Notes under the pieces: model-generated
Told to the model about the DNA's origin: nothing
The model's input: the letters and a program-made list of their open reading frames with translations, nothing else
Databases searched by the model: none
Shown: positions 1 to 27,093 of the stretch, one piece after another
How the letters are laid out: each line of letters begins with the position of its first letter
Numbering within the stretch: position 1 is the stretch's first letter
From: an uncultured Dehalococcoidales bacterium
GTDB lineage: Bacteria > Chloroflexota > Dehalococcoidia > GIF9 > AB-539-J10
DNA: 42,601 nt
Assembly (NCBI GenBank): GCA_964429285.1
Contig: CAYSBO010000002.1
Location: forward strand, 1 to 42,601
Direction of reading: 5' to 3'
Made by a program: the position numbers and the translations under genes

Positions 1-699
1 TGCGTCGTTAGCCTGTTTTCTGTCCTTCTTTCTTTCTTCGGTTAACTCATTTACTTTGGCTTCCCAACCAGATACATCCTCTTCGGGCGAAAGGTCCAGT
101 TTGTTCAGAATATTTTCACCTTTGGAGCTATTGGGAATAAGGAGGATACTGCCGCTCTTTGTGCCCAGCGTTCCTATATGCAAATCTTGGCCACCGGTGG
201 CAGAAAACTTATCACATATCCGGCACACCGGCCGCATCGGCTTACCGTTCCAATTCTGCGAGGCATCCTCAAACGCTTTATCACCCTGCTTTGGATCCTT
301 GAAATAGTCTGCCAACGGCATCACGCCAGGACAGTCCATAGTGATAAGGATTATATTCTCGACGTCTACTTGCGCAAGCTTAGCTAGCTCAATTGTTGCC
401 TGCGCCTCACAGGGCCGTACGATAGCAGCTATTCTTTTGTTCCCCTTTCCACGTCTTGTAAGGCCGGAAATAACTCTAGCTCCCTGGACTGGCATAATTG
501 GAGGCAACATAGAAGATCCTTCAAGAAATGCCTCATCTCGAACTAAGAAGTAGGCAAACGAATCGCCAGTCGGCGCTCTGGCAGGAATAAGGATAGCATC
601 AAAGCAATCCTGACTAAGCGCCTGCCTTACAAGGTTGAGGATGCCTTTTTCCACACCCTCTTTTGCCTCCAGAATTGCCCCTTTTCGAGTAACAGCCAT
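1..699 (-). CDS. FrhB/FdhB-family (coenzyme F420 hydrogenase/dehydrogenase beta-subunit-like) Fe-S flavoprotein; N-terminal 233 codons, ORF runs off the left edge
   Basis: Absent from the ORF track because there is no stop in the window. Manual minus-strand translation from ATG 697-699 (SD aaGGAGttg at 701-710) is open for all 233 codons: MAVTRKGAILEAKEGVEKGILNLVRQALSQDCFDAILIPARAPTGDSFAYFLVRDE...AAIVRPCEAQATIELAKL...MRPVCRICDKFSATGGQDLHIGTLG. The RPCE and CxxCxD..(a)DhxxG segments resemble FrhB_FdhB N and C domains. Confidence 0.55.
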   Translation of the reverse strand, partial: MAVTRKGAILEAKEGVEKGILNLVRQALSQDCFDAILIPARAPTGDSFAYFLVRDEAFLEGSSMLPPIMPVQGARVISGLTRRGKGNKRIAAIVRPCEAQATIELAKLAQVDVENIILITMDCPGVMPLADYFKDPKQGDKAFEDASQNWNGKPMRPVCRICDKFSATGGQDLHIGTLGTKSGSILLIPNSSKGENILNKLDLSPEEDVSGWEAKVNELTEERKKDRKQANDA

Positions 700-877
700 A
701 TCAACTCCTTATCAATCTTACAAGCTCCCGCTGTGAAATCGCTAAGCCATATATTTCTTGAGGACGACGAGCACAGGTTACCCTGGCCAGAGCCTCAGCT
801 CTGCCCAGCTACTTGTCTCCTCAAGCTAGCAATATCTCAGCTGGTCTTTACTTATCCTATCTGCCTGTAGAACTCCC

Positions 878-1921
878 TTACAAATTCTGCATGGGTCGGA
901 CGAACCAGAAGTAGGCTAATGTCCAGCATCCGAATACGATAAAGGCACCATTCAGTATAGAACTGAGGGCAAGCTGGGGTACTCCAGTAAGAATATGGGT
1001 TATGTTACAACCGCCACCAAGGGCTGCTCCAAACCCCATAATACAGCCACCGAAGAATGTCTGGATTAATACTTTGGGCGCTGGCGCTCGCAGCGTAGCT
1101 TCACCAGCTATTTTAGCTCCTATAAAAGCCCCGAGGATGGTGAAGAGTAGCGTTACAGATAGCCACCCGATGAGGTTTTGGCCCAGTAGCAAGCTCTGCA
1201 TAGTTGTCCAGTACCCACCGCAAATAGCTAGGCCGTAGCTCCTGCCAGCAGCAGTCGAGGCGATGAAAGCAAGTATTCCTATAATAGCAATAACGATCGC
1301 AGTTGCCTGCCATCCCCAACCCCGCTTGAATATCTTGGTACCTATGGAAGCATTTTCCTCTTTCCTGGATGACCCCTCACCGCGTTTGGAACGGATAGCC
1401 CAGATAATAAGAGCGACCCCTGCAATCCCAAAGGCCAGCATATGATGAGGTATGCCGAACACATTAGCCAGCGTGAGGTTCGCTCCATCCGCCAATGTGA
1501 CTGTTGTTGCGCCTCTAAGCCACGCAACAAAAGGCTGGAAGACACCCATTGTAGTCATAAGCCCCACGAGTATTAAACCAAGGACCGCTGACATTGCGCC
1601 TACCATACCCTCTCCAAAGCGGTATGTGATCCCACTCGCACATCCACCTGCCACCACCATGCCGATGCCAAAAATGAAGCCACCCAATATATTAGCACCC
1701 CAAAAGAACGTGATGGGACTTATAGTAATCACCCCTGCCATATCCAGGGCTGCGAATGCCACCATCTGGATAAGAATGGCAAGCCCCACCGCCTTCAGGA
1801 GCGCATACTCCTTAAGTACGATGATGTCCCTAAAGGCAGAGTTCATGCAGAACCTGCCCCTCTGCAAGGCAAACCCAAAGGCTAAGCCAACGGGAATGCC
1901 GAGGAAGATCAATGGGCTCAT
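878..1921 (-). CDS. yeeE: YeeE/YedE-family sulfur (thiosulfate) transporter
   Basis: 347-aa polytopic hydrophobic ORF with three Cys motifs (GRFCMNSAF, AGGCASGITY, GGGCNITH) typical of YeeE/YedE. ATG 1919-1921 is preceded by aaGGGGGGa. There is a 2-nt gap to the upstream TusA-like gene. Confidence 0.85.
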   Translation of the reverse strand: MSPLIFLGIPVGLAFGFALQRGRFCMNSAFRDIIVLKEYALLKAVGLAILIQMVAFAALDMAGVITISPITFFWGANILGGFIFGIGMVVAGGCASGITYRFGEGMVGAMSAVLGLILVGLMTTMGVFQPFVAWLRGATTVTLADGANLTLANVFGIPHHMLAFGIAGVALIIWAIRSKRGEGSSRKEENASIGTKIFKRGWGWQATAIVIAIIGILAFIASTAAGRSYGLAICGGYWTTMQSLLLGQNLIGWLSVTLLFTILGAFIGAKIAGEATLRAPAPKVLIQTFFGGCIMGFGAALGGGCNITHILTGVPQLALSSILNGAFIVFGCWTLAYFWFVRPMQNL

Positions 1922-1923
1922 TT

Positions 1924-2172
1924 CTATCCCCCCTTCGCCTCGATGAATATTTTGTGGTTGGGGCCATCAAGTCGCTCTACTTTCAGCACCTTGTGCCCGT
2001 TCTTTTCAGCGTTACCGGGGATACGTTCTACTGAGAGCGGATAATCAACCAGCACCTCCAGTATTTTGCCCTGTTCCATCTTTTTGAGCTTTACCATAGT
2101 CTTAACATCGGGATTGGGACAGATTTCTCCTCTCACATCCAGAGTCTCGTCGGCTTTGATCTCTTCTGCCAT
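1924..2172 (-). CDS. TusA/SirA-family sulfur carrier (YeeD/TsuB-like partner of YeeE)
   Basis: 82 aa. LDVRGEICPNPDVKT carries the CPxP persulfide-carrier motif. SD aAAGGAGaagg lies before ATG 2170-2172. The gene sits immediately upstream of yeeE, as in yeeD-yeeE pairs. Confidence 0.8.
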   Translation of the reverse strand: MAEEIKADETLDVRGEICPNPDVKTMVKLKKMEQGKILEVLVDYPLSVERIPGNAEKNGHKVLKVERLDGPNHKIFIEAKGG

Positions 2173-2252: not shown

Positions 2253-3293
2253 TTAGCCACAGGCGCCATCACCTCCATCTGGCGGTGTTGGCACTGCCTC
2301 ACCAGCACCGGTCTCGAACGGATAATCCAAGCTCGTGTCTGGATTGAACCCACCAGGGGCAATATCCGTATCCTTCGTCCAGGAAGTCATGCCCCAATGC
2401 AGGTTGACTGCATTGTAGCCAAGTACATTTAGGATAGCCGTGGCCTGGCTTCCGGTACGGCCGGTGTAGCAGTAGACAACGATCTGCCTACTGGGGTCAA
2501 GTTTTTGCAGATTTTCCCTTTTCGCTATGCCAGTGAGGGCTATATTAACTGCTCCGGGAATATGGCCTTTGGCGTACTGTTCAGCAGTACGAACACTGAT
2601 GATTATGGGGTCGTTAGCTGGGTCGCCACCGGTGATCAGAGCATAGACGTCTGTAGCCGATATATCTTTATGTGAGCCACTAGCATAGTTGTAGCAGGCA
2701 GTTCGAATAATCTCTGTCGGGCTTGTCGAGGCTGTGTTCTCAATCGTAGGCAGAGGGTAGGTCTCATTAAACGTGTTAGCCGTCATCTCAATGGGGTAGT
2801 CCATGGCACTCTCCGGGTCGAAACGATAAGGAGCTACCTCGGTATCCTTTGTCCAGCCAGTCATTCCCCATTTAAGGTTGGTGGCATTATAGCCACACAG
2901 ATTGAGAAGTGCAGCTACCCTACTCCCAGTGTGCCCGGTGTAACAGTAGACCACGATTTCCTTGTCTTGAGGCAGCCTGGTCAGGTTCCCTGTCTTGAAG
3001 ACTCCCGCCATGGGTATGTTGACTGCTCCCGGGATATGGCCTAGCTCGTAGATATCGGGTGCCCGGATGCTGAGTATGAAGGGATCGTTATCCAGGTTAC
3101 GGTCGAGGAGGTTGGAGCACAGGTCTTTTTCCGCCATGTTCCATACGGTGGTGGGCGCATTCAGGTACCCGTCTGCTGCCTCGCGGATGACTTCAAACTC
3201 CGATACGGCTGGTGCCTCTGGGGTAGCTCCTGCTAACACTGGTACAAGTACAAGTAGAATGATTCCCAGAACGAATAGGGCAATCCTTTTCAT
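2253..3293 (-). CDS. Secreted tandem rhodanese-domain sulfurtransferase
   Basis: 346 aa. The N-terminal Sec-type signal is MKRIALFVLGIILLVLVPVLAGA. Two rhodanese modules each carry an active-site loop (VVYCYTGHTGS and VVYCYTGRTGS) and the context GHIPGAVNI. The C-terminus ends in ...PPDGGDGACG. Confidence 0.8.
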   Translation of the reverse strand: MKRIALFVLGIILLVLVPVLAGATPEAPAVSEFEVIREAADGYLNAPTTVWNMAEKDLCSNLLDRNLDNDPFILSIRAPDIYELGHIPGAVNIPMAGVFKTGNLTRLPQDKEIVVYCYTGHTGSRVAALLNLCGYNATNLKWGMTGWTKDTEVAPYRFDPESAMDYPIEMTANTFNETYPLPTIENTASTSPTEIIRTACYNYASGSHKDISATDVYALITGGDPANDPIIISVRTAEQYAKGHIPGAVNIALTGIAKRENLQKLDPSRQIVVYCYTGRTGSQATAILNVLGYNAVNLHWGMTSWTKDTDIAPGGFNPDTSLDYPFETGAGEAVPTPPDGGDGACG

Positions 3294-3333: not shown

Positions 3334-5031
3334 TTATTTTAGTAGTGCTTCGACCTCTTGATAGATCTCTGTAAAGGTGAAATGCTTCAATTTCGCCGCG
3401 CCGGAAGGACATGCAGCGGCACAGTTTCCGCAACCGTGGCACAGGACCTCGTTTGCAACTGAGATTTTCCTGTATTCGTCGAAGGTAATGGCCCCAAAGG
3501 GACAGACATCAATGCAGGTTTTACATCCAGCACAGAAGGTCTCAGATATCTCGCATACTCTCACCTCCAGTTCTAACTTTCTACCTGGAACCAGTGCCGA
3601 CAGTATCTTGCCTGCTGCCGCCTCTGCCTGAACCATTGACTCAGCAATGCTTTTGGGCCCTTGAGCACAACCAACGACGAATATCCCCTCCACGGCGGAT
3701 GCTACCGGTGAGAGGAGCTCATGCTCTTCAGCATAAAAGCCCCTTTCGTCTTGCTGGAGCTTAAACATCTCAGCAAACTTGTGGGCATCGCCGCTCGGTT
3801 CCATCGCCGGCAGCAGAATTACCATATCTGCCTGTAAGTTCCCTTTTTGAGCGGTTTCCGTTTCATATTTGATGGCTAGACCTCTTTCGCTGCCAGTAAC
3901 CTCAGTCCTGGCAGAGCGGACAAACTCAGCTCCGAGCTTCTTCGTGTCTTCGTAGAACTTCTGATACGCCTTGCCCGGAATGCATAGATCAGAGTAGAGA
4001 TGAGATATTTTGACCTTGGGAAGCTGCGATTTCAGCACCCGGTCAAATTTCAGGGAGTACAGGCAGCATACCTTGGAGCAGTAACCCTTCTCTTCTCGGC
4101 CTACACAATGAATAATAGCTACTGATTCGGGGGGCTTGCCATTGTTGAGCAGGATTTTGCCACCGCCAGGCGCGTCAGCTAGGTTCATTTCCTCGAATTC
4201 CATGCTCGTATAAACATCATCGAGCTTTCCGTATCCATACTGGGCCAGTTTACTGACATCAAACGGCTCAAACCCGGTTGCCAGGACCACGGCTCCAACA
4301 TTGAATTTCGATTGGTCGTCCTGTGCCTTCGTTCTCAGTGTTACTTCGAAGTTTCCGAGGAACCCTAGAACTTGCTCAACCTCGGTCTCGGTGAGCACCT
4401 CAACATTTCCGTTTTCCCCAAGGCTTTTTACTTCCTCTTCAACAAGCTTTGAGCCAGATTCCATGTTGGTGAATAGCGTGCTAAAGCTCTTTACTTTGCC
4501 TCCAAGGGAAGCATCTTTCTCAACAAGGTATACCTTCCTATCGGGAGCAGCAAGGACATTGGCGGCTTTGATCCCGGCAATACCGCCACCAATCACCAGC
4601 ACGTCCGGATTGCAGTCTACCTCTGTCTTTTCCAGGGCTTCCTGGTAATGTACCCTGTTGACGCCGGCCGTTATCAGCCTTATTGCCTTCTCCGTGGCTT
4701 CCGTTCCGTCCGGCGTAACCCAGGCACACTGCTCCCGTATGTTGACAAGCTGACAGAGCTGGGGATTGAGACCTGCCTGTTCGCATACATTCATGAAGGT
4801 CACCTCATGCTGCCTCGGCGAGCAAGCGGCAATCACCACATGCGTCAAGCCATGCTCTTCAATGCTTTGCTTCAGGTATTCTTGTCCGTCCCCGGAACAC
4901 AGAAGCTTATACCTGTCAACAACTGCCACGTCTTTAAGAGGCGAGAGTGCAGCGATCACCCTGTCGATATCTATTTTCTCGGCTATGTTAGTGCCGCACT
5001 CACATACATATACACCTATTTTCTTCGCCAT
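3334..5031 (-). CDS. hdrA: HdrA-like FAD/Fe-S oxidoreductase with N-terminal Cys domain and C-terminal 2x[4Fe-4S] domain but no inserted ferredoxin domain
   Basis: 565 aa. Motifs: N-terminal IGVYVCECGTNIA, Rossmann VLVIGGGIAGIKAA, HCVGREEKGYCSKVCC (HdrA cluster motif), C-terminal CAGCKTCIDVCPFGAI and CHGCGNCAAACPSGA. SD GAGGAA lies before ATG 5029-5031. Confidence 0.85.
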   Translation of the reverse strand: MAKKIGVYVCECGTNIAEKIDIDRVIAALSPLKDVAVVDRYKLLCSGDGQEYLKQSIEEHGLTHVVIAACSPRQHEVTFMNVCEQAGLNPQLCQLVNIREQCAWVTPDGTEATEKAIRLITAGVNRVHYQEALEKTEVDCNPDVLVIGGGIAGIKAANVLAAPDRKVYLVEKDASLGGKVKSFSTLFTNMESGSKLVEEEVKSLGENGNVEVLTETEVEQVLGFLGNFEVTLRTKAQDDQSKFNVGAVVLATGFEPFDVSKLAQYGYGKLDDVYTSMEFEEMNLADAPGGGKILLNNGKPPESVAIIHCVGREEKGYCSKVCCLYSLKFDRVLKSQLPKVKISHLYSDLCIPGKAYQKFYEDTKKLGAEFVRSARTEVTGSERGLAIKYETETAQKGNLQADMVILLPAMEPSGDAHKFAEMFKLQQDERGFYAEEHELLSPVASAVEGIFVVGCAQGPKSIAESMVQAEAAAGKILSALVPGRKLELEVRVCEISETFCAGCKTCIDVCPFGAITFDEYRKISVANEVLCHGCGNCAAACPSGAAKLKHFTFTEIYQEVEALLK

Positions 5032-5042: not shown

Positions 5043-6323
5043 CTACCTTCTTAGTGCCAGTACTCTTCCAGCTGCTGCCTCTGCATCAGCTATCGTCTCA
5101 GCAATATCTTTAGGGTTTTGGGCACACCCGGCAATAAATATGCCATCTCGTGGGGTAACTACGGAAGTAAGATCCGGTTCCTTCTCACTGAAAAAGCCGT
5201 CCTGCCCCTGGGAAATACCTAGAATCTGTGCCAGTTCTGCTGAATCCGCCGCCGGTTCGAGCGCTGGGTTGAGTATAACCATATCCACGGTCAGTGTATT
5301 ATCCTTGCCATCTTCCGATTTGTATTTGATGTCCAGTCCCTTACCTGACTGTGAGACTTCAGTTACCGTAGCCCTGATGAAATCAACCCCGCCTTCCTTT
5401 ACCTCCTGGTAAAACTTCTGATAGGTTTTGCCAGGGATAGAGAGGTCGGTGTAAAACTGGGTTATTTTGACTTTGGGTAGTTTGTGCTTAACAAAGTGCG
5501 CGATTTTGAGAGAAGCCATACAGCAGACTGAAGAGCAGTAGCCCTTCTCCTCTCGCCCTACACAATGAATAATGGCCATTGATTTCGGCTGTTGTCCGTT
5601 CTTGAGGACTATTTGTCCCTGAGTAGGTCCGTTAGAGGCGCATACCCTCTCAAATTCCATGGCAGAATAGACGTTGTCCAACTTCTTGTATCCAAACTGG
5701 CTGATTCCACTGGGGTCAAATGACTTGAAACCGGTGGCCACAACAATGGCGCCAACCTCAATTTCGAGCTCTTCATCCTGCTGGTTGAAGTCAATTGCTT
5801 CGAATACGCAGGCTTCCTGACAGGCCTGGCACTCTTGCCCTTTAAAACGCAGGCAATTCTCTGTGTCAACAACGGGAATGGCGGGCAAAGACCCGGCACA
5901 CGGGACATATATTGCCTTTCTCTTTGAGAGCCCCTCCTCAAATTCGTTGTCTACCTCTACCGGGCAGGGATCGAAGCAGGCACCGCAACTGATGCAGCTT
6001 TCCATGTCAACGTAGCCCGCCCTTTTCTTGATTTTCACCGAAAAACTGCCCGGAGAGCCGCTGACAGCTTCTACCTGGCTGAGCCTCAGAAGTTCAATAT
6101 TCTTATTGTCCAGTACCTCTTCCAACTTCGGTGCCATGATACAGCCTACGCACTCCATGCTGGGGAATGCATCTTCGAGCTTAATTACATTGCCACCGAT
6201 ATATGAGTTCTTTTCAACGAGGTATACCTGTCTCCCTGACTTAGCCAGCAGTGAGCTTGCCTCAACGCCAGCAATCCCGGCACCGATAACGAGTATCGAG
6301 TTGTTTTGTCCGCTGTTGTTCAT
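5043..6323 (-). CDS. hdrA: HdrA-like FAD/Fe-S oxidoreductase, core plus inserted ferredoxin domain only (no N-terminal or C-terminal Fe-S domains)
   Basis: 426 aa, starting directly at the Rossmann fold ILVIGAGIAGVEAS. Other motifs: FPSMECVGCIMAPKL, inserted CISCGACFDPCP and CQACQEACVFEAI, HCVGREEKGYCSSVCC. It ends after IFIAGCAQNPKDI...AAAGRVLALRR. Confidence 0.85.
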   Translation of the reverse strand: MNNSGQNNSILVIGAGIAGVEASSLLAKSGRQVYLVEKNSYIGGNVIKLEDAFPSMECVGCIMAPKLEEVLDNKNIELLRLSQVEAVSGSPGSFSVKIKKRAGYVDMESCISCGACFDPCPVEVDNEFEEGLSKRKAIYVPCAGSLPAIPVVDTENCLRFKGQECQACQEACVFEAIDFNQQDEELEIEVGAIVVATGFKSFDPSGISQFGYKKLDNVYSAMEFERVCASNGPTQGQIVLKNGQQPKSMAIIHCVGREEKGYCSSVCCMASLKIAHFVKHKLPKVKITQFYTDLSIPGKTYQKFYQEVKEGGVDFIRATVTEVSQSGKGLDIKYKSEDGKDNTLTVDMVILNPALEPAADSAELAQILGISQGQDGFFSEKEPDLTSVVTPRDGIFIAGCAQNPKDIAETIADAEAAAGRVLALRR

Positions 6324-11827: not shown

Positions 11828-13234
11828 CTACTCAACACTAGCCCCCAAGTACTCGTCCATATCCCTTGCTGCGCGGCGGGCAGCCCCCATGGCGCTTATT
11901 ACCGTAGCGGCGCCGGTAACTATGTCCCCACCGGCCCAGACTTTGTCCTTCATCGTCCTGCCGGTGGTCTCATCAGCCACTACTGTACCCCACTTGCTTG
12001 TCTTCAAATCAGGAGTAGCGTGAGCAATAAGGGGGTTAGGACGGGTGCCCAAGGCAGCCACCACCATATCCACATCCATGACAAACTCACTTCCCTCTTT
12101 GGCAATGGGGCGCCTCCGACCGCTCTCATCAGGCTCCCCCAACTCCATCTCGTAGCACTCTATACCGACTACCCAGTTCGACTCATTGCCAATGTATCTC
12201 TTGGGGTTTGTCAGCAGCTTGAACTGGATTCCCTCCTCCATGGCATTGTCAACTTCCTCACGGCGGGCGGGCATCTCTGCCTCTGAGCGACGGTAGATGA
12301 TGTACACTTCTTCGGCACCAAGCCGGAGAGAACACCGGGCCGAGTCCATAGCCACATTACCGCCGCCAATCACGGCCACCCTCTTGCTCACCAACACCGG
12401 CGTATCATACTCAGGAAACTTGTATGCCTTCATCAGATTGACCCGCGTCAGGAACTCGTTGGCTGAATAGATGCCGTTCAGGTTCTCGCCGGGAATGTCC
12501 ATGAACATGGGTGCTCCGGCACCGGTACCCAGGAAGATGGCATCGTAGCCGTTCGCCAGCAGTTCGTCGAGGGTCATCACCTTACCCACTACCGAATCCA
12601 GCTCGATCTTTACTCCGAGTGAAGCAACGTAGGCAACCTCAGCCTGCACAATTTCTTTGGGCAGCCTGAACTCAGGGATGCCGTACATAAGCACCCCGCC
12701 AGCCACATGCAAAGCCTCGAAGAGGCTAACGTCATGGCCGAGCTTGGCCAAATCGGCAGCAGCGACCAGTCCGGCTGGTCCAGAGCCGATCACCGCCACC
12801 CGCTTACCGCTTGGGCTAGGTGACCCAGCCCCGGGGTTGAGTGTCCCACTGTTGGCCCGTTCCCAATCAGCCACGTAGCGCTCCAAGCGTCCGATGGCAA
12901 TAGGCGCTCCTTTCTTGGCCAGCGAGCATACTTCTTCACATTGTGTCTCTTGCGGGCAGACCCGCCCGCAGATACCAGGCAGGCTATTCTTATCCTTGAG
13001 TATCCTTACCGCTTCGGGCATATTGTCATCAAGGATAGCCTGGATAAAACCGGGAATATCTATTTCCACCGGGCAGCCATCTATGCAGGGATGTTTGGGA
13101 CACTGCAGGCAGCGGCTTGCCTCGGCTTTAGCTTGCTCGGCGGCGTAGCCCAAGGCAACCTGGTTGAAGTTCCTACCCCGGATCTTGGGGTCCTGCTTTG
13201 CCATCGGTTCCCTGTTAAGATTCACCTTAGCCAT
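11828..13234 (-). CDS. NfnB/SudA/GltD-family NAD(P)H-dependent oxidoreductase large subunit (copy 2)
   Basis: 468 aa, colinear with copy 1. Motifs: CLQCPKHPCIDGCPV, CGRVCPQETQCEEVC, VAVIGSGPAGL, VAVIGGGNVAMD, VWAGGDIVTGAATVISAMGAARRAA. Confidence 0.85.
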   Translation of the reverse strand: MAKVNLNREPMAKQDPKIRGRNFNQVALGYAAEQAKAEASRCLQCPKHPCIDGCPVEIDIPGFIQAILDDNMPEAVRILKDKNSLPGICGRVCPQETQCEEVCSLAKKGAPIAIGRLERYVADWERANSGTLNPGAGSPSPSGKRVAVIGSGPAGLVAAADLAKLGHDVSLFEALHVAGGVLMYGIPEFRLPKEIVQAEVAYVASLGVKIELDSVVGKVMTLDELLANGYDAIFLGTGAGAPMFMDIPGENLNGIYSANEFLTRVNLMKAYKFPEYDTPVLVSKRVAVIGGGNVAMDSARCSLRLGAEEVYIIYRRSEAEMPARREEVDNAMEEGIQFKLLTNPKRYIGNESNWVVGIECYEMELGEPDESGRRRPIAKEGSEFVMDVDMVVAALGTRPNPLIAHATPDLKTSKWGTVVADETTGRTMKDKVWAGGDIVTGAATVISAMGAARRAARDMDEYLGASVE

Positions 13235-13255: not shown

Positions 13256-14095
13256 TCAAGAATGCTTGGCCATCTCGGCCTGGCAACGCTGAAAGGAGCG
13301 TTTTTCCTCATCAAGATAAATACGCTGCCGAGCCGCCAGCAAGTCCCAGTCTACCTGGTGTCCGTCAAAATCAGGACCATCCACGCAGGCAAACTTGGTT
13401 GCCCCACCAACCGATACCCGGCAGCAACCGCACATGCCGGTACCATCGACCATTATCGGATTCAGGCTCACAATGGTCTTCACCCCAAAAGGCTCGGTGG
13501 TTTTGGCGCAGAACTTCATCATCACGGTAGGGCCAATGGCGATAACCCGGTCAACCTTCTCCCCGCTCTCCAGCACCTCCTTCAGAGGCTCAGTTACTAC
13601 CCCTTTGCGACCATACGTCCCGTCATCCGTAGTGACTATTAGCTGATGGCTGGCGTCACGCAGCTTGTCTTCCCAGAAGAGCAAGTCCTTGCTTCGCGCC
13701 CCCAAGATGGAGATAATATTGTTTCCCTTCTCTTTCAGCGCCTTGGCAATAGGCGCTATTACTGCAACACCAACCCCTCCCGCTACACAGACAATAGTGC
13801 CAAATTTCTCAATTTCCGAAGGTACGCCGAGGGGACCAACAAAGTCAGCAATAAAGTCTCCCGCATTGAGCTGGCCCAGCCTGAAGGTTGTCGCTCCTAC
13901 TTCCATGAACACCATGCTGACGCTGCCTTCCTTTTCATCCCAGTCAGCAATTGTCAGAGGGATACGCTCACCCTTTTCATCAACCCTGACCACAACGAAC
14001 TGTCCTGGCTGTGCTTTCCTGGCAACCGCCGGCGCTTCGATTTTGAACAGGTGAATCTTGTTGGCTAAAGTCTCTTTGTCAATGATTCCAAACAT
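13256..14095 (-). CDS. NfnA/SudB/PyrK-like FAD, [2Fe-2S] small subunit (copy 2)
   Basis: 279 aa. Motifs: QPGQFVVVRVDEKGERIPLTI, VCVAGGVGVA, DGTGMCGCCRV...KFACVDGPDF. Confidence 0.8.
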   Translation of the reverse strand: MFGIIDKETLANKIHLFKIEAPAVARKAQPGQFVVVRVDEKGERIPLTIADWDEKEGSVSMVFMEVGATTFRLGQLNAGDFIADFVGPLGVPSEIEKFGTIVCVAGGVGVAVIAPIAKALKEKGNNIISILGARSKDLLFWEDKLRDASHQLIVTTDDGTYGRKGVVTEPLKEVLESGEKVDRVIAIGPTVMMKFCAKTTEPFGVKTIVSLNPIMVDGTGMCGCCRVSVGGATKFACVDGPDFDGHQVDWDLLAARQRIYLDEEKRSFQRCQAEMAKHS

Positions 14096-14121
14096 TTGGC
14101 AAGCTCCATCCTAATTCACCC

Positions 14122-16092
14122 TCATACCAGTACTCCTTCTACCTGAGCGAAAATCTGCTCATTAGTGAACTGTCTTGCAGTTATTGCTCCGCTGGGACAT
14201 GCACCGGCACAGACGCCGCAGCCTTTGCACAAGGCCTCGTTGATTCGGCAGACTTCCTTTTCTTCGTCATAAGAAATGGCGCCAAAGGGACAAAGCGCGA
14301 GGCATGTCTTACAACCGGCGCATTTCTCTTCATCAATTGCTGATACCGCGGCCTCGAGCGTAATTCTACCTTGGCTTATCATTGCTAGAACCCTTGCCGC
14401 CGCTGCTGAAGCTTGGGCTACGGTATCGGGAATATCCTTGGGACTCTGGCAACAACCAGCAACGAAAATCCCCTCAGTAGGCGTAGCTACCGGATCCAGT
14501 TTGGGATGCCTCTCCAGGAAGAAACCGGTCGCCTTCTGGTTTATGGTAAATAGACTCGCTAGCTCTACAGCATCGGGTTGAGGCTCTAGGGCATTACACA
14601 GAATAACCATGTCTACTGGAATACGGATCATACTTCCTAGAAGCGTGTCCTCGGCAACCACGATGAGTTTGTCTTTTTCCTCGTCAGTTATGGCCTGATC
14701 GGTGACCTTGGCTACCTTGCCCCGAACAAAGTTGACTCCTTCTTCGGAGAGACGCGCGTAGAATTCCTCATATCCGTCTCCGAAGCACCGCATGTCGATA
14801 TACAACTGGTAGACGTCTGTGTTTGGCAGCTCTTCCTTAATGTAATTTGCCTGTTTAAGGGCGTACATACAGCAAACCCGGGAGCAATACTCATGATAAT
14901 TCTTGTCTCGGCTGCCAACACAATGGACTATGGCCACGCTCTCCGGCTCTCTGCCGTCCTTAAGGTGAATCTTCCCTTCGGTGGGTCCTGTAGGGCTCAC
15001 CATCCGCTCGAACTCCAGCCCAGTCATGACGCCATCGTATTTCCCGTAACCATACTGAGGAATGCGTTTGGGATCCATAAGGCTATAGCCGGTGGCCAGA
15101 ATAACTGACCCCACCTCTACTTCAATGAATTCGTCTTTCTGGTCAAAATCTATGGCTTCTGCCTCGCAGAGCTTAATGCAAGCTCCGCATTTCTTCCCTT
15201 CTGATTTGATGTAGATGCAGAGATCCGGATCAATGGTGGCAACGTTAGGGATAGCTTGAGGAAACGGAATATAGGCAGCCTTTCTCTTTGCCAGGCCCAG
15301 TTCGAATTCACTATCTGTCTTATAAGGGCATTTCTGCATGCACATACCACAGCCGGTACACTTGTCCTCGTCCACATACCTGGCTTTTTTCCTTATTTTG
15401 GCCTTGAAATTTCCTACGAAGCCGGAAACCTCCTCCACCTCGCTATAGGCCAACAGCTCGATATGGGGATGCGAACCTGCCTCGCTCATCTTGGGAGTAA
15501 GAATACATTGAGAACAGTCCAGGGTCGGGAAGGTCTTGTCAAGCTGGATCATGTGCCCGCCGATGGAGGGATCCCTCTCCACTAGATAGACCTTGTGCTC
15601 AGAGTTGGCAATCTCCAGAGCAGCTTGAATTCCGGCAATTCCCCCACCTACGACCAGAGTATTCGGATTATAGGGAGCCTCCTTGACTTCTAAGGCCTCC
15701 TGGTAGTGAACACGCCTCACCGCGGCGCCGATCAAAGCCTTGGCCTTCTCCGTATTCGCCTTCTTGTCTGAATTGACCCAGGAACATTGCTCTCTTATGT
15801 TTACCATTTCGAATAGATAACGATTTAGCCCGGCGCTTTCACAAACCCGTCGGAAAGTCACCTCGTGTAACCTGGGGGAGCAAGAAGCGACTATAACACG
15901 ATTGAGGTTATGTTCCTTAATGTCTTTTCTAATGAGGTCTTGCCCCGGGTCGGAACACATGAATACGTAATCACGGGACAGCACCACTTCGGGTAGCGTA
16001 CCCGCATATTTTGCTACCTCTTCCACATCGAGTGTCGCTGCAATATTCACTCCGCAGTGACAAACGTAAACGCCGATCCTTATATCTTCCAT
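14122..16092 (-). CDS. hdrA: Full-length heterodisulfide reductase subunit A-like flavoprotein (all four HdrA domains)
   Basis: Motifs: IGVYVCHCGVNIA, LVVGGGIAGIQAA, FPTLDCSQCILTPKM, inserted CTGCGMCMQKCP and CGACIKLCEAEAI, HCVGSRDKNYHEYCSRVCC, C-terminal CAGCKTCLALCPFGAI and CKGCGVCAGACPSGAI. I prefer ATG 16090-16092 (GGAGG 6 nt upstream, TGAAATG junction with hdrBC) over the track's TTG at 16119. Confidence 0.9.
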   Translation of the reverse strand: MEDIRIGVYVCHCGVNIAATLDVEEVAKYAGTLPEVVLSRDYVFMCSDPGQDLIRKDIKEHNLNRVIVASCSPRLHEVTFRRVCESAGLNRYLFEMVNIREQCSWVNSDKKANTEKAKALIGAAVRRVHYQEALEVKEAPYNPNTLVVGGGIAGIQAALEIANSEHKVYLVERDPSIGGHMIQLDKTFPTLDCSQCILTPKMSEAGSHPHIELLAYSEVEEVSGFVGNFKAKIRKKARYVDEDKCTGCGMCMQKCPYKTDSEFELGLAKRKAAYIPFPQAIPNVATIDPDLCIYIKSEGKKCGACIKLCEAEAIDFDQKDEFIEVEVGSVILATGYSLMDPKRIPQYGYGKYDGVMTGLEFERMVSPTGPTEGKIHLKDGREPESVAIVHCVGSRDKNYHEYCSRVCCMYALKQANYIKEELPNTDVYQLYIDMRCFGDGYEEFYARLSEEGVNFVRGKVAKVTDQAITDEEKDKLIVVAEDTLLGSMIRIPVDMVILCNALEPQPDAVELASLFTINQKATGFFLERHPKLDPVATPTEGIFVAGCCQSPKDIPDTVAQASAAAARVLAMISQGRITLEAAVSAIDEEKCAGCKTCLALCPFGAISYDEEKEVCRINEALCKGCGVCAGACPSGAITARQFTNEQIFAQVEGVLV

Positions 16093-16093
16093 T

Positions 16094-17251
16094 TCATTCC
16101 TCCGACATTGCCTCAGCAACTAGCTCAATTATGTCTTTAACCTGCATGGTCTCCGCCTTGCCCATAGAGAGCACGCTATCCCTGTAGTTGAGGAAACAGT
16201 AAGGACAGGCCACTGCTATGATTTCAGCACCTTTTTCGGCAGCTTGCTCCACTCTTATGTCAGAGAACCTTTCCCCTTTCGGGGTATCCATCCAGATTCT
16301 GCCGCCCCCACCCCCACAGCAAAGTGCGTCCTCGCGAAAGTCGGGAAACTCCATCAATTCCACCCCGGGGATACTCTCTAACACTTTTCTGGGCTCATCA
16401 TATATGTCGCTGTGCCTTCCCAAATAGCAGGGGTCAGAATAGATTACCTTCTTCTTTACTTCTTTGGAGAATTTTAGTTTCCCCTGGTCTAGGAGCGAAG
16501 CCAAATATTGGGTGACGTGAATTGCCTCAAATTGGCCCCCGAGCTCGGGGTATTCGTACTTGAAAGTGTAGTAGCAGTGGGGTGAAGAAGCCACCACGGT
16601 CTTGACGTCGTTATTGTTGAAAAGTTGAATATTGCTTTGGGCCAGACTGAGAAATGTATCTTCATGCCCAGCTTTTCTAATAGACTCGCCGCAGCATTTT
16701 GCCTCAGTGCCTATCAGGCCGTAGTCAAGCCCCAGCTTGTTGAACACCGTAGCAGTGGACCGGGCCACTGTCTTTGCATCAGGGTCGTAGGAAGGAATAC
16801 AGCACGGGAAATACAGCAGGTCAGTGCCGGAAGCAAAGTCCTTCACGTTGAGTTCTTTCGCCCAGTCGTTCCGTTTTTCTGGTGCCTCCCCAAGGGGGTT
16901 TCCTACCCCGGCGATGTTTTTGGCCGAAATCCTCAGAGCATCGGGGACGACCCCAATACCTAGGCTAGCTACAGCCCGGCGTATAGCTCTCATGATATCG
17001 ATTATCTCCACACCCCGGGGGCAGCGTTGAACACAGGCCCCACAGGTGACGCAGGTCCAGACATCCTCGCTGCCAAAATCAATTGCCCCGAGCTGAGACT
17101 CATGCATGATACGACGAACGACGAAACTGCGTACCTGGTTCCAGGGACAAATTCCGGTGCAAAGGCCGCATTGGTAGCACAATTTGAGAGGTTCGCCACC
17201 AGCCTCCAGTATCACATCTGTAGCTTCTTTGTAAGGACTTAATACTTCCAT
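16094..17251 (-). CDS. HdrC-HdrB fusion (HdrD/GlpC-like) Fe-S protein with two CCG domains
   Basis: N-terminal CYQCGLCTGICPW and CVTCGACVQRCPRG (2x[4Fe-4S]), followed by CCG-type motifs FPCCIPSYD..KCCGESI and DPCYLGRH..LCCGGGGG..CPYC. ATG 17249-17251 with GAGGTGA 7 nt upstream is preferred over the TTG at 17287, which lies inside a hairpin/A-tract. Confidence 0.85.
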   Translation of the reverse strand: MEVLSPYKEATDVILEAGGEPLKLCYQCGLCTGICPWNQVRSFVVRRIMHESQLGAIDFGSEDVWTCVTCGACVQRCPRGVEIIDIMRAIRRAVASLGIGVVPDALRISAKNIAGVGNPLGEAPEKRNDWAKELNVKDFASGTDLLYFPCCIPSYDPDAKTVARSTATVFNKLGLDYGLIGTEAKCCGESIRKAGHEDTFLSLAQSNIQLFNNNDVKTVVASSPHCYYTFKYEYPELGGQFEAIHVTQYLASLLDQGKLKFSKEVKKKVIYSDPCYLGRHSDIYDEPRKVLESIPGVELMEFPDFREDALCCGGGGGRIWMDTPKGERFSDIRVEQAAEKGAEIIAVACPYCFLNYRDSVLSMGKAETMQVKDIIELVAEAMSEE

Positions 17252-27092: not shown

Positions 27093-27093
27093 G

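What the first reader, a model, noticed from the sequence alone, without database searches (positions are those of the whole stretch)
1..17251. Sulfur-carrier genes (YeeE, 2x TusA, DsrE-like, secreted rhodanese) embedded in a duplicated HdrA-MvhD-NfnAB-like electron-bifurcation supercluster
Seen in sequence: 17 co-oriented genes run from 17251 to 878, with gaps mostly 30 nt or less, and probably continue to the FrhB-like gene at 699. The order is hdrCB-fusion, full-length hdrA, nfnA/nfnB-like pair, an mvhD'-hdrA' scar, (Fd-MvhD)x2, a second nfnA/nfnB-like pair, mvhD, dsrE-like, tusA-like, mvhD, two complementary hdrA-like genes, rhodanese, tusA-like, yeeE. All diagnostic Cys motifs are intact. 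Established knowledge: HdrA(-MvhD) modules carry out flavin-based electron bifurcation. NfnAB/SudAB-type pairs link NAD(P)H and ferredoxin. HdrB-type CCG domains reduce disulfides. YeeE/TusA/DsrE/rhodanese move thiosulfate- or persulfide-sulfur. As far as I recall, YedE-TusA-DsrE sets have also been proposed as markers of sulfur disproportionation. Inference: the window has no hydrogenase, formate dehydrogenase, MetF/MetV, DsrAB/AprAB/Sat/Qmo or lipoate-binding LbpA. That makes the layout fit none of classical Mvh-Hdr, Flx-Hdr, Hdr-MetFV or the sulfur-oxidising sHdr-LbpA system. It may be a NAD(P)H/ferredoxin-coupled Hdr whose disulfide substrate is carrier-bound persulfide or polysulfide sulfur imported via YeeE. 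I cannot verify novelty without database searches.
Basis: partly seen in the sequence, partly recalled or inferred. Interest (0 to 1): 0.85.

Follow-up and report, generated by a model that had tools for sequence, protein, structure and literature searches.

The report
Sulfur-carrier-linked Hdr electron-bifurcation gene island
An uncultured sediment bacterium carries a real 17-kb gene island whose core, sulfur-carrier proteins joined to an unusual two-part HdrA electron-splitting enzyme, recurs as one operon in many uncultured bacterial and archaeal phyla, which hints at an undescribed way for anaerobes to gain energy from sulfur.

Summary
The minus-strand gene run is real.

Comparative genomics moves the centre of interest. 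The conserved unit is dsrE-like–tusA–mvhD–hdrA(426 aa)–hdrA(565 aa)–fdhB-like–fdhB-like, often followed by mvhD or (Fd-MvhD)x2.
- It is co-linear in 44 of 51 species-level genomes with enough flank. These include Dehalococcoidia, Aminicenantes, WOR-3, KSB1, Latescibacterota, Eisenbacteria, Krumholzibacteriota and Thermoplasmatota.
- It appears in 26 of 26 metagenome contigs anchored the other way, on the FdhB-like gene.

The two HdrAs are exactly complementary in domains and in the Cys197 ligand. This is the asymmetric heterodimer proposed for ANME archaea.

The rhodanese–tusA–yeeE cassette is a mobile insertion. The HdrCB–HdrA–NfnAB–(Fd-MvhD)x2–NfnAB half is a lineage-specific fusion of two Nfn–Hdr units. 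Candidate persulfide-sensing repressors (CstR-like, ArsR-like) sit upstream of the operon in relatives.

Best reading: a flavin-based electron-bifurcating system that uses TusA/DsrE-bound sulfane sulfur, or the disulfide it leaves, as high-potential acceptor. The function is inferred, not shown. I found no description of this operon in the searchable literature.

Verdict: new variant of a known kind, interest about 0.7.

The parts
16094..17287 (-). hdrC/hdrB fusion (HdrD-like soluble disulfide-reductase subunit). The likely start is the ATG at 17251. The longest ORF starts at the TTG at 17287.
   Evidence: It carries Fer4_8/9 plus 2x CCG. The best PDB match is 9ojn_A, an HdrD-like protein. The N-terminal part matches HdrC of 5odc/8rvu. 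The second CCG is canonical; the first has SPHC instead of CPHC.
14122..16119 (-). Full-length four-domain hdrA (665 aa), of the homodimer type that keeps the Cys197-site CxxC.
   Evidence: It matches the NCBIfam HdrA2 model over positions 1-640 at 850 bits. The motif FPTLDCSQCIL is present.
13256..14095 (-). nfnA-like 1 (FAD/NAD and [2Fe-2S] subunit).
   Evidence: PRK06222, 432 bits against a cut-off of 220. DHODB_Fe-S_bind domain.
11828..13234 (-). nfnB-like 1.
   Evidence: TIGR01316, 574 bits against a cut-off of 472. Fer4_20 plus Pyr_redox_2.
11596..11719 (-). Deletion scar. An mvhD' start (11672-11719) is joined to an hdrA' C-terminal end (11596-11676) in another frame.
   Evidence: blastx: MvhD_b residues 1-16 at 62%, and HdrA665 residues 638-664 at 52%. 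The intact unit HdrA-X-NfnA2-NfnB2-MvhD occurs in L095.
10319..11494 (-). (2x[4Fe-4S] ferredoxin + MvhD-like) x2 protein, here called 'X'.
   Evidence: FlpD with two stretches plus Fer4 with three stretches. Paralogues 35-37% identical follow the second fdhB-like gene in relatives. An orthologue 70% identical lies in the Nfn unit of L095.
9457..10308 (-). nfnA-like 2.
   Evidence: PRK06222, 342 bits. Matches P. furiosus NfnI small subunit 5jca_S at 272 bits.
8042..9448 (-). nfnB-like 2.
   Evidence: Matches T. maritima NfnB 4ylf_B at 583 bits over the full length.
7521..7946 (-). mvhD_b.
   Evidence: FlpD, 6e-55. An MvhD sits directly upstream of DsrE in most Dehalococcoidia-like loci.
7070..7429 (-). 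dsrE-like sulfur-carrier gene (DsrE2/DsrE3-like) with a single invariant Cys80.
   Evidence: PF13686, 34.8 bits. Profile against PDB: DsrE2B 2qs7 at 3.5e-10 and DsrE3A 3mc3 at 7e-8, with the active-site Cys aligned. Cys80 is present in 53 of 53 homologues.
6775..7002 (-). tusA_b, a multi-cysteine TusA: CPEP Cys13, invariant Cys40, and Cys61.
   Evidence: PF01206. Cys13 in 53/53, Cys40 in 53/53 and Cys61 in 50/53 homologues. The subfamily is also found next to other HdrA systems.
6337..6762 (-). mvhD_a.
   Evidence: FlpD, 3e-52. Five invariant Cys.
5043..6323 (-). hdrA' (426 aa). It has the thioredoxin-reductase domain and the inserted ferredoxin domain and keeps the Cys197-site CxxC. It lacks the N-terminal and C-terminal ferredoxin domains.
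   Evidence: PDB alignment to 8rvv_A residues 141-557. CxxC present in 52 of 53 homologues; domain occupancy measured.
3334..5031 (-). hdrA'' (565 aa). [quoted passage not shown] It lacks the inserted ferredoxin domain and the Cys197 site.
   Evidence: PDB alignment to 8rvu_a residues 12-245 and 323-653. None of 49 homologues has Cys at the CxxC site.
2253..3293 (-). Two-domain rhodanese with an N-terminal signal-like segment. Both catalytic Cys loops (CYTGHTG and CYTGRTG) are present.
   Evidence: PF00581 with two stretches. Sequence.
1924..2172 (-). tusA_a (YeeD/YedF-like, one Cys), paired with yeeE across a 2-nt gap.
   Evidence: PF01206, 8e-20. NCBIfam YedF, 68.8 bits against a cut-off of 79.
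878..1921 (-). yeeE/tsuA-like sulfur (thiosulfate) transporter.
   Evidence: PF04143, 2e-72. NCBIfam TsuA, 262 bits against a cut-off of 400. Three Cys motifs are present: FCMN, GGCASG, GGGCN.
1..699 (-). fdhB-like gene F1, cut by the window edge. The full protein is 386 aa and is followed by paralogue F2.
   Evidence: L086 is 100% identical over 3518 bp. Profile against PDB: FdhB of the Fdh-Hdr supercomplexes, 9t1s_M at 5e-46, then 8rvu_E and 7bkb_E. Fifteen invariant Cys.
17359..17387 (-). Promoter-like site in the nusB-hdrCB spacer. Weak evidence only.
   Evidence: TTGCCT-17-TATACT with an upstream TG. The total count of such sites does not exceed that in shuffled sequence.

Best explanation
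The stretch is a sulfur-linked Hdr island of an uncultured Dehalococcoidia bacterium. It is built from three units.

**Unit A, the widely conserved core.** Gene order: MvhD_b, DsrE-like, TusA_b, MvhD_a, HdrA426, HdrA565, [insertion], FdhB-like F1, F2. It runs past the window edge.
- HdrA426 and HdrA565 form an obligate asymmetric heterodimer. It has one N-terminal cluster (completed by Cys197 of the partner), one inserted ferredoxin domain and one C-terminal ferredoxin domain. That gives a single bifurcation path.
- MvhD proteins and two FdhB-type Fe-S flavoproteins wire the heterodimer to a two-electron carrier. This could be F420H2-like or NAD(P)H-like; which one is unknown.
- DsrE-like (one Cys) and the multi-cysteine TusA_b carry sulfane sulfur.
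- I propose that a second thiol resolves the persulfide. This releases H2S and leaves a protein disulfide. The high-potential branch re-reduces that disulfide, while the low-potential branch reduces ferredoxin.

**Unit B, a mobile insertion.** A secreted rhodanese, TusA_a (YeeD-like) and YeeE bring thiosulfate or polysulfide sulfur into the cell and onto the carriers.

**Unit C, lineage-specific.** Gene order: HdrCB, HdrA665, NfnA1B1, scar, (Fd-MvhD)x2, NfnA2B2. These are two NAD(P)H-linked Nfn-Hdr units fused by a deletion. They supply a CCG-type disulfide-reducing site and an NAD(P)H entry, probably acting on the same carriers.

**Shown:** gene content, cofactor motifs, domain complementarity, conservation and modularity.
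**Inferred:** complex composition, direction of electron flow, identity of the donor, and that sulfane sulfur or a carrier disulfide is the acceptor.
For: **Conservation of the core**
- Of 80 species-level loci, 72 have HdrA/MvhD near the DsrE-like gene.
- 47 of 56 loci with enough flank show DsrE-TusA-MvhD-A426-A565. 44 of 51 also show both FdhB-like genes.
- With the anchor reversed onto F1, 43 of 43 contigs have A565 directly upstream, or separated from F1 only by the rhodanese/TusA/YeeE cassette. 26 of 26 show the full upstream order.

**Asymmetric heterodimer**
- 0 of 49 A565 proteins, against 52 of 53 A426 proteins, carry the Cys197-site CxxC.
- Accessory-domain occupancy is 1.00/0.03/1.00 against 0.01/0.98/0.01.
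- This matches the ANME model (PMC9012536).

**FdhB-type partners:**

**The carrier pair is the constant partner while the donor modules vary**
- FdhB-like pair in the majority of loci.
- MvhGA hydrogenase in 11 loci.
- HdrA::MvhD-HdrC-HdrB with fumarate-reductase-like genes in L048/L065.
- NfnAB here and in L007; an Nfn-Hdr unit also lies downstream of the module in L095.

**Link to sulfur supply**
- YeeE/TusA/rhodanese cassettes are inserted at three different positions and in three gene orders.

**Candidate sulfane-sulfur regulation**
- A CsoR/CstR-like gene lies divergently upstream in 27 loci.
- A 2-Cys ArsR-like gene lies upstream in about 25 loci.
- This parallels the ArsR-type regulators, YeeE-like importers and TusA/DsrE/rhodanese sets of sHdr systems (PMC11094781; titles and abstracts of PMC11582611 and PMC10451225).

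**Carrier chemistry**
- The DsrE-like protein aligns with DsrE2B/DsrE3A, including the active Cys.
- TusA_b has invariant Cys13 and Cys40.
Against: - There is no biochemical or expression evidence.
- The core operon has no HdrB/CCG protein in most phyla, so the site that would reduce a disulfide or persulfide is unidentified.
- Only 15 of 80 loci carry a YeeE-like gene nearby, so sulfur import is not an obligatory neighbour.
- These genomes hold many clustered hdrA/mvhD paralogues ('Hdr islands'). Some of the adjacency may therefore be indirect.
- The redox potential of persulfide/H2S is only favourable for bifurcation at low sulfide. This rests on my own estimate, not on a test.
- The cofactor of the FdhB-like proteins is unknown, and F420 is not established for these lineages.
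- The CsoR and ArsR families also include metal sensors.
Confidence: 0.45

Rival explanations
1. TusA_b and the DsrE-like protein act as pure protein dithiol/disulfide redox carriers, in a DsrC- or CoM/CoB-like role. They would shuttle electrons between thiol-oxidising enzymes and Hdr. No net sulfur compound would be reduced, and the YeeE cassette would be an unrelated neighbour.
For: - In L048/L065, DsrE-TusA sit beside HdrA::MvhD-HdrC-HdrB. Fumarate-reductase-like FrdAB, fumarase and malic enzyme are adjacent. This is reminiscent of thiol:fumarate reductase plus Hdr.
- TusA_b has two or three conserved Cys.
- Most loci lack a YeeE nearby.
Against: - YeeE/TusA/rhodanese cassettes have been inserted independently at three positions around or inside the operon.
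- CstR-like and ArsR-like regulators lie upstream.
- The families involved are sulfane-sulfur transferases in every characterised case (PMC4175335, PMC11094781).
Confidence: 0.2
2. The system runs in the oxidative direction, as an anaerobic analogue of sHdr. Carrier-bound sulfane sulfur would be oxidised, and the electrons confurcated or bifurcated onto NAD(P)+/F420 and ferredoxin.
For: - The accessory set (TusA, DsrE2/3-like, rhodanese, YeeE-like importer, ArsR-type regulator) is the same as for sHdr (abstracts).
- DsrE2B and DsrE3A are the closest solved relatives.
Against: - There is no LbpA and no hdrC1B1A-hyp-hdrC2B2 core.
- There are no sulfite-handling genes in the window.
- The HdrAs are of the bifurcating archaeal type with MvhD, not the short sHdrA.
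- The hosts are fermentative sediment lineages, judging from the record names.
Confidence: 0.12
3. The genes are neighbouring but functionally separate systems. These would be an Nfn-type transhydrogenase, generic Hdr-type redox balancing, and a thiosulfate-assimilation or persulfide-detoxification set (YeeE/TusA/rhodanese/DsrE). They would be co-located in a redox island without forming one pathway.
For: - The upstream Nfn/HdrCB half is not conserved with the core and moves between relatives.
- The genomes show dense clustering of hdrA paralogues.
- DsrE-TusA_a-YeeE-Rhd also occurs alone (L008, L009, L053).
- DsrE4-type proteins have been proposed to act in detoxification.
Against: - Order is strict and gaps are short (11-13 nt for tusA_b-mvhD_a-hdrA'-hdrA'', 67 nt for dsrE-tusA_b) in the window.
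- The same order holds across at least 8 phyla and both domains.
- The reciprocal anchor gives 26 of 26.
- TusA_b is a distinct subfamily found with HdrA systems.
Confidence: 0.15
4. The carriers handle selenium rather than sulfur. YedE/YedF-type proteins would deliver selenium, for example for selenoprotein or cofactor synthesis linked to Hdr/Mvh proteins.
For: - The best NCBIfam hit of TusA_a is YedF (68.8 bits).
- YeeE also hits YedE/FdhT (96 bits).
- From my own knowledge, not tested here: Sec-containing forms are known for the HdrA, MvhD and DsrE-like families. The selenoprotein reviews listed were not read.
Against: - Both hits fall below their cut-offs.
- TsuA (thiosulfate) models score far higher: 262 against 96 bits.
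- No in-frame TGA or Sec machinery was seen in the window.
Confidence: 0.04

Closest known systems
Asymmetric tandem-HdrA gene clusters of ANME archaea (HdrA5/6, HdrA12/13; FdhB-only and HdrA::NfnB variants), Chadwick et al. 2022, PMC9012536
   Same: - Two adjacent hdrA genes. One has the N-terminal domain and no Cys197. The other has no N-terminal domain and keeps Cys197.
- MvhD is present.
- FdhB/FrhB homologues occur without FdhA.
- NfnB-type modules are associated with HdrA.
   Different: - Here the hosts are bacteria (Dehalococcoidia, Aminicenantes and others) and Thermoplasmatota, with no indication of CoM/CoB metabolism.
- The operon always starts with DsrE-like and TusA, which that paper does not mention.
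- NfnAB are separate subunits here, not an insertion in HdrA.
Methanogen Mvh/Fdh-HdrABC(-Fmd) electron-bifurcating supercomplexes (PDB 5odc, 7bkb, 8rvu, 9t1s)
   Same: - HdrA fold and clusters.
- MvhD as connector.
- FdhB-type subunit with the same C-terminal Cys-rich dicluster region.
- HdrC/HdrB-type CCG protein present in the window.
   Different: - No MvhAG or FdhA catalytic subunit in the window.
- HdrA is split into a heterodimer.
- The core operon lacks HdrBC.
- The thiol substrate cannot be assumed to be CoM-S-S-CoB.
sHdr-LbpA sulfur-oxidising system with its TusA/DsrE3/rhodanese relay (PMC11094781, PMC4175335)
   Same: - Hdr-like genes are tied to TusA, DsrE2/3-like and rhodanese sulfur transferases.
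- YeeE-like importers and ArsR-type sulfane-sulfur repressors are found nearby.
   Different: - No LbpA.
- No duplicated HdrB/HdrC core.
- HdrA here is the long bifurcating type with ferredoxin domains and MvhD.
- The hosts are anaerobic.
YTD cluster / DsrEFH type II (YeeE-TusA-DsrE-like + 2 CHPs), PMC8528874, PMC13293266
   Same: [quoted passage not shown] YTD-like cassettes with a porin lie next to the operon in some phyla.
   Different: - No two CHP (DsrF/H type II) genes lie beside the DsrE-like gene.
- DsrE and YeeE are separated by the hdrA genes.
- No dsrAB context is present in the window.
TsuA/TsuB (YeeE/YeeD) thiosulfate uptake pair
   Same: YeeE with three conserved Cys motifs sits directly next to a one-Cys TusA-like protein, 2 nt apart.
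   Different: - It scores below the NCBIfam TsuA equivalog cut-offs.
- It is accompanied by a secreted two-domain rhodanese.
- It is embedded in an hdr operon.
NfnAB / P. furiosus NfnI (SuDH) transhydrogenase (PDB 4ylf, 5jca); HdrL and FlxABCD-HdrABC as NAD(P)H-linked Hdr systems
   Same: Both pairs are full-length NfnA/NfnB homologues that score above the family cut-offs. NAD(P)H-linked Hdr systems are an established theme.
   Different: - The pairs here are embedded between hdrA, mvhD and (Fd-MvhD)x2 genes. They do not stand alone.
- There are two diverged copies (50-63% identical).
- They are not fused into HdrA as in HdrL or ANME-1.

Membership tests
Methanogen-type bifurcating Hdr (Mvh/Fdh-HdrABC) | Four-domain HdrA with the Cys197-site CxxC | tested here: met
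   HdrA665 covers HdrA2 model positions 1-640 and carries the motif LDCSQC.
Methanogen-type bifurcating Hdr (Mvh/Fdh-HdrABC) | MvhD [2Fe-2S] connector subunit | tested here: met
   Two FlpD proteins with five invariant Cys.
Methanogen-type bifurcating Hdr (Mvh/Fdh-HdrABC) | HdrC plus HdrB with two CCG domains | tested here: met
   Present as one fused protein. The second CCG is canonical. The first is a variant (SPHC) that still has 5 Cys.
Methanogen-type bifurcating Hdr (Mvh/Fdh-HdrABC) | Catalytic donor module MvhAG or FdhA | tested here: not met
   No NiFe-hydrogenase or molybdopterin subunit was found in the window. Only FdhB-type proteins are present.
Methanogen-type bifurcating Hdr (Mvh/Fdh-HdrABC) | CoM-S-S-CoB as substrate | not testable with these tools
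   This needs biochemistry or whole-genome CoM/CoB biosynthesis data.
ANME-type asymmetric tandem HdrA cluster | Adjacent hdrA genes that are complementary in N-terminal domain and Cys197 | tested here: met
   0 of 49 against 52 of 53 carry the Cys. Domain occupancy is complementary.
ANME-type asymmetric tandem HdrA cluster | FdhB/FrhB homologue without FdhA, plus MvhD | tested here: met
ANME-type asymmetric tandem HdrA cluster | Host is a methane- or alkane-metabolising archaeon | tested here: not met
   The nearest named proteins and contigs are Dehalococcoidia MAGs. Other hosts are bacterial candidate phyla and Thermoplasmatota.
sHdr-LbpA sulfur oxidation | hdrC1-hdrB1-hdrA-hyp-hdrC2-hdrB2 core with a short sHdrA | tested here: not met
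   There is a single fused HdrCB. The HdrAs carry ferredoxin domains and are accompanied by MvhD.
sHdr-LbpA sulfur oxidation | Lipoate-binding LbpA nearby | tested here: not met
   No GcvH-like protein was found among the window ORFs scanned. The rest of the genome was not seen.
sHdr-LbpA sulfur oxidation | Accompanying TusA/DsrE/rhodanese set | tested here: met
YTD cluster / DsrEFH type II | yeeE, tusA and dsrE-like plus two conserved hypothetical genes (DsrF/H type II) in one cluster | tested here: not met
   The DsrE-like gene is flanked by mvhD_b (91 nt) and tusA_b (67 nt). There are no CHP genes, and yeeE lies 5 kb away. Definition taken from PMC13293266.
TsuA/TsuB thiosulfate uptake | YeeE-family protein with conserved Cys motifs next to a TusA-like partner | tested here: met
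   The gap is 2 nt.
TsuA/TsuB thiosulfate uptake | Score above the NCBIfam TsuA equivalog cut-off | tested here: not met
   262 bits against a cut-off of 400, and 165 against 645.
NfnAB | NfnB (GltD-like, 2x[4Fe-4S] plus FAD) and NfnA (FNR-like, [2Fe-2S]) above family cut-offs | tested here: met
NfnAB | NADH-dependent Fd:NADP+ oxidoreductase activity as a free heterodimer | not testable with these tools
   The gene context (mvhD, (Fd-MvhD)x2, hdrA) suggests incorporation into a larger complex.
DsrE superfamily (DsrE2/DsrE3-like) | DsrE_2 fold signature with the active-site Cys aligned | tested here: met
   PF13686 above its cut-off. The Cys aligns with 2qs7/3mc3.
DsrE superfamily (DsrE2/DsrE3-like) | Cys-X7-Cys motif of DsrE3A | tested here: not met
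   There is a single conserved Cys80. The motif definition is from PMC4175335.

The most novel reading that the evidence does not exclude
A previously unrecognised and widespread class of HdrBC-less, asymmetric HdrA-MvhD-FdhB-like electron-bifurcating complexes. It would be found in at least eight uncultured bacterial phyla and in Thermoplasmatota. It would use protein-bound sulfane sulfur, as TusA/DsrE persulfide or the disulfide it leaves, as the high-potential acceptor. Fermentative sediment microbes would then have a cytoplasmic, ferredoxin-generating way to conserve energy from polysulfide or thiosulfate. TusA/DsrE would be identified as the long-sought 'heterodisulfide' of non-methanogen Hdr systems.
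Probability: 0.3. Interest if true: 0.85.

Novelty: new variant of a known kind. Interest (0 to 1): 0.7.

Why it matters
The physiological thiol/disulfide substrate of HdrA-type bifurcating enzymes outside methanogens, and apart from DsrC in sulfate reducers, is a long-standing open question.

This operon ties a defined pair of small cysteine proteins to such enzymes. The link holds across many abundant, uncultured sediment lineages: Dehalococcoidia, Aminicenantes, Thermoprofundales-like archaea and others. The donor modules are interchangeable: FdhB-like, Mvh hydrogenase, NfnAB.

That gives a concrete and testable candidate substrate. It also suggests a cytoplasmic route by which fermenters in sulfidic sediments could turn zero-valent sulfur or thiosulfate into reduced ferredoxin. 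This would bear on cryptic sulfur cycling and on energy budgets in the deep biosphere.

The operon is compact, 7-8 genes, and so is suited to heterologous expression and cryo-EM.

Tried and rejected
- **RNA genes:** the Rfam gathering-threshold scan and the tRNA scan of the whole window found nothing.
- **Promoters and terminators:** the scan did not exceed shuffled expectation, 14 against 15.2 and 21 against 16.8. It therefore defines no operon boundaries.
- **sHdr membership:** rejected. No LbpA, and the wrong HdrA/HdrBC architecture.
- **Canonical YTD / DsrEFH type II:** rejected. The two CHP genes are missing.
- **Selenium reading:** weak. The YedE/YedF hits fall below their cut-offs and TsuA scores higher.
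- **Recent tandem duplication:** rejected. The paralogues are 50-63% identical.
- **Whole 17-gene layout conserved?** No. It occurs only in L006 (~95% identical) and in part in L007.
- **Appel et al. 2021 review on HdrA(BC) modules (BBA):** could not be read. It may already show bacterial HdrA clusters with TusA/DsrE, so the novelty claim carries that caveat.
- **Cultured host:** none was found among the named homologues. Every named hit is a MAG.
- **Not used:** structure prediction and fold search. The sequence profiles already placed the proteins, and the tools return no inter-residue distances. The single-job representative-library search was not needed.

Full report
**1. Observation**

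Pfam and NCBIfam confirm every assignment:
- YeeE (878-1921), TusA_a (1924-2172) and a two-domain rhodanese (2253-3293).
- An HdrA-like protein of 565 aa (3334-5031) and one of 426 aa (5043-6323).
- MvhD_a (6337-6762), TusA_b (6775-7002), a DsrE_2-family protein (7070-7429) and MvhD_b (7521-7946).
- NfnB-like and NfnA-like pair 2 (8042-9448, 9457-10308).
- A 391-aa protein with two ferredoxin+MvhD repeats (10319-11494).
- NfnB-like and NfnA-like pair 1 (11828-13234, 13256-14095).
- A full-length HdrA of 665 aa (14122-16119).
- A fused HdrC/HdrB with two CCG domains (16094-17251/17287).

The 333-nt gap at 11495-11827 holds two remnants. One is the first 16 codons of an mvhD. The other, in a different frame, is the last 27 codons of an hdrA. 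The 'scar' is therefore real, though supported only by short matches.

The paralogue pairs are old: NfnB 63%, NfnA 50%, MvhD 51%.

The rest of the window is housekeeping (NusB, FabD, YceD, L9, DnaB, DnaE, ArgJ/B/D/G, an ABC exporter). It contains no hydrogenase, FdhA, MetFV, Dsr/Apr/Sat/Qmo or LbpA, and no RNA genes.

The nearest named relatives are Dehalococcoidia MAGs.

**2. The window edge**

A metagenome contig, L086, is 100% identical to window 1-3518. It shows that the truncated gene at 1-699 encodes a 386-aa protein followed by a second paralogue of at least 367 aa.

A profile of these proteins matches the FdhB subunits of the methanogen Fdh-Hdr(-Fmd) supercomplexes: 9t1s_M at E=5e-46, then 8rvu_E and 7bkb_E. 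The match includes the C-terminal Cys-rich dicluster region. Fifteen Cys are invariant. No FdhA is present anywhere nearby.

**3. What is conserved**

I anchored a scan of species-representative genomes on the DsrE-like protein. It gave 161 relatives, of which 80 loci were fetched. tblastn with the window proteins gave these counts:
- 72 of 80 loci have HdrA or MvhD in the flanks.
- 47 of 56 loci with at least 4.5 kb downstream show DsrE-TusA_b-MvhD-HdrA426-HdrA565.
- 44 of 51 loci with at least 7.3 kb downstream also show both FdhB-like genes.
- 39 of those are followed by MvhD or by the (Fd-MvhD)x2 protein.

The record names span Dehalococcoidia, Aminicenantes/Acidobacteriota, WOR-3, KSB1, Latescibacterota, Eisenbacteria, Krumholzibacteriota, Firmicutes-labelled bins and Thermoplasmatota, including SM1-50.

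I then reversed the anchor to the FdhB-like protein and scanned JGI metagenome contigs:
- 43 of 43 contigs have HdrA565 directly upstream, or separated only by rhodanese/TusA/YeeE.
- 26 of 26 contigs with enough sequence show the full DsrE-to-FdhB-like order.

So the conserved entity is a 7-8-gene operon.

**4. The two HdrAs**

Alignment to solved HdrA structures and to 100 homologues shows exact complementarity.

| Feature | 565-aa protein | 426-aa protein |
|---|---|---|
| N-terminal cluster domain (occupancy) | 1.00 | 0.01 |
| Inserted ferredoxin domain (occupancy) | 0.03 | 0.98 |
| C-terminal ferredoxin domain (occupancy) | 1.00 | 0.01 |
| Cys at the CxxC that supplies Cys197 | 0 of 49 | 52 of 53 |

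This is exactly the pattern from which Chadwick et al. (PMC9012536) inferred obligate HdrA heterodimers in ANME archaea. They also describe HdrA::NfnB fusions and FdhB-only Hdr clusters. That paper does not mention TusA or DsrE.

**5. Modularity around a constant carrier pair**

DsrE-like and TusA_b-type genes also head other HdrA systems:
- HdrA(full)-MvhD-MvhG-MvhA [NiFe]-hydrogenase clusters. Hydrogenase genes lie next to the module in 11 loci.
- HdrA::MvhD-HdrC-HdrB next to fumarate-reductase-like genes, fumarase and malic enzyme (L048/L065).
- NfnAB-containing units (the window and L007).

TusA_b is a distinct subfamily. It has the CPxP Cys13 and an invariant Cys40, and usually Cys61 as well. 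From my own recollection of E. coli TusA, Cys40 sits where that protein has its DDP loop. The DsrE-like protein has a single invariant Cys80, which aligns with the active-site Cys of DsrE2B and DsrE3A.

**6. The other two units**

*The rhodanese-TusA_a-YeeE cassette is mobile.*
- It is inserted between HdrA565 and the FdhB-like gene in this window and in about a third of the Dehalococcoidia-like contigs. The gene orders are RTY, TY or TYR.
- It lies upstream of DsrE in other phyla, often with a porin.
- In L014 it lies between DsrE and TusA_b.
- With its own DsrE it also stands alone (L008, L009, L053).

*The upstream half is lineage-specific.*
- A relative with an 86%-identical HdrA426 has no Nfn or HdrCB there (L087).
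- L089, L090 and L103 have (HdrCB-)HdrA-MvhD directly upstream of DsrE, without Nfn.
- L095 has an intact HdrA-(Fd-MvhD)x2-NfnA2-NfnB2-MvhD unit downstream of the operon.
- The window therefore holds two Nfn-Hdr units fused by the deletion that left the scar.
- Both Nfn pairs are bona fide NfnAB homologues.

**7. Regulators in relatives**

A CsoR/CstR-like gene (PF02583 on L087) is divergently encoded just upstream of (MvhD-)DsrE in 27 Dehalococcoidia-like loci. It has two conserved Cys and no His at the copper-ligand position.

A two-Cys ArsR-type gene sits 60-120 bp upstream of DsrE in about 25 loci of other phyla.

From established knowledge, both families contain persulfide sensors (CstR; SqrR/BigR; sHdrR/SoxR). 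Both also contain metal sensors, so this is a hint and not proof. The window itself has neither gene.

**8. Mechanism (inferred)**

By analogy with the solved Mvh/Fdh-Hdr complexes, the HdrA426/565 heterodimer offers one bifurcating path:
- Electrons enter or leave through MvhD and the FdhB-type flavoproteins.
- One branch reaches ferredoxin through the N-terminal cluster and the inserted ferredoxin domain.
- The other branch needs a high-potential acceptor.

The only conserved candidates for that acceptor are TusA_b and the DsrE-like protein. I propose that sulfane sulfur arrives as a persulfide. In this organism it would be supplied by the secreted rhodanese, YeeE and TusA_a. A second thiol would resolve it to H2S plus a protein disulfide, and the complex would re-reduce the disulfide. 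In this lineage the HdrCB/HdrA665/NfnAB unit would provide a CCG-type reducing site and an NAD(P)H entry.

Weak points:
- The core operon has no CCG protein in most phyla.
- The cofactor of the FdhB-like proteins is unknown.
- The thermodynamics is favourable only at low sulfide (my estimate).
- There are no expression or biochemical data.

**9. Comparison and novelty**

The parts are known kinds: HdrA/MvhD bifurcation modules, asymmetric tandem HdrAs, NfnAB, and TusA/DsrE/rhodanese/YeeE relays as in sHdr and YTD systems. Membership in sHdr, YTD/DsrEFH type II and classical Mvh/Fdh-Hdr fails on defining features (see the membership table).

What appears new is the fixed operon that joins DsrE-like and TusA to an HdrBC-less asymmetric HdrA-MvhD-FdhB-like enzyme, and its breadth across phyla. 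Full-text searches found no paper that combines TusA, FrhB and heterodisulfide reductase. Only four papers hold both TusA and MvhD, and none of them, as judged from titles, abstracts and the text of two, concerns this operon. Work on marine Chloroflexi describes other Hdr clusters, MetVF- and FdhBA-linked (PMC5736913).

Caveat: the main review of HdrA modules (Appel et al. 2021) could not be read.

**10. Verdict**

The sulfur-Hdr link is real and conserved. Its centre of gravity is the asymmetric HdrA/FdhB-like operon, not the Nfn/HdrCB half. The function remains inferred.
- New variant of a known kind; interest about 0.7.

Noticed in passing
L089 2736-3023 (minus strand); also L018, L085, L087, L090, L094, L103, L106, L109, L111, L113, L117, L119, L120, L129, L133, L136-L138, L145, L149, L153, L155, L157, L158: A 93-95-aa CsoR/CstR-family regulator is divergently encoded immediately upstream of (MvhD-)DsrE in 27 Dehalococcoidia-like loci. 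It has two conserved Cys (GR[DE]CE ... [IL]CF) and no His at the Cu-ligand position. It is absent from the window.
   Followed up: partly
L025 9645-9932 and about 24 other loci (e.g. L022, L026, L029, L032, L034, L036, L047, L051, L070, L071): An ArsR-family regulator with two conserved Cys (GEKCVNDI ... NLRCYYL) sits 60-120 bp upstream of the DsrE-like gene on the same strand. The loci are from Aminicenantes and other phyla.
   Followed up: partly
L048 and L065, about 7700-18500: DsrE-like and TusA head a different cluster: HdrA::MvhD fusion (800 aa), HdrC, HdrB, FrdB-like and FrdA-like. It is flanked by fumarase alpha/beta and malic enzyme. The layout is reminiscent of thiol:fumarate reductase plus Hdr.
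   Followed up: partly
L014, L019, L023, L027, L052, L058, L060, L073, L076, L079, L084: Mvh-type [NiFe]-hydrogenase small and large subunit genes lie next to the module or next to DsrE-TusA-HdrA-MvhD. The donor module therefore varies while the carrier pair stays.
   Followed up: partly
L088 8368-8679 and 19175-19534: Phage-integrase gene fragments flank the whole DsrE-to-FdhB-like operon on a 160-kb contig. This suggests that the operon moves as an island.
   Followed up: no
L086 3940-5040 (continuation of the window's left edge): The second FdhB-like protein of this organism has Asp where 45 of 47 homologues have the fourth Cys of the FdhB-type cluster.
   Followed up: no
L087 9741-12175: A MetV-like protein (PF12225, 122 bits) without MetF follows the (Fd-MvhD)x2 gene. 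After it comes a class-I pyridine-nucleotide disulfide oxidoreductase with a dimerisation domain (441 aa).
   Followed up: no
window 12001-14000: The nfnA1/nfnB1 region has GC 0.553 against about 0.50 for its neighbours in the cluster. This is consistent with a separate origin for that unit.
   Followed up: no
window 25669-29619: Two NADPH-dependent FMN-reductase-type flavoproteins (25669-26235 on the + strand, 29035-29619 on the - strand) bracket an ABC-2 exporter with two ATPase genes.
   Followed up: no
window 39101-39847 (+), 30289-30774 (+), 19493-19816 (-): These ORFs of 107-248 aa have no Pfam match. The ORFs 22659-23399 (DnaD-like) and 23173-24708 (IstB/DnaC-like ATPase) overlap by 227 nt as listed, so the true start of the second probably lies further downstream.
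   Followed up: no
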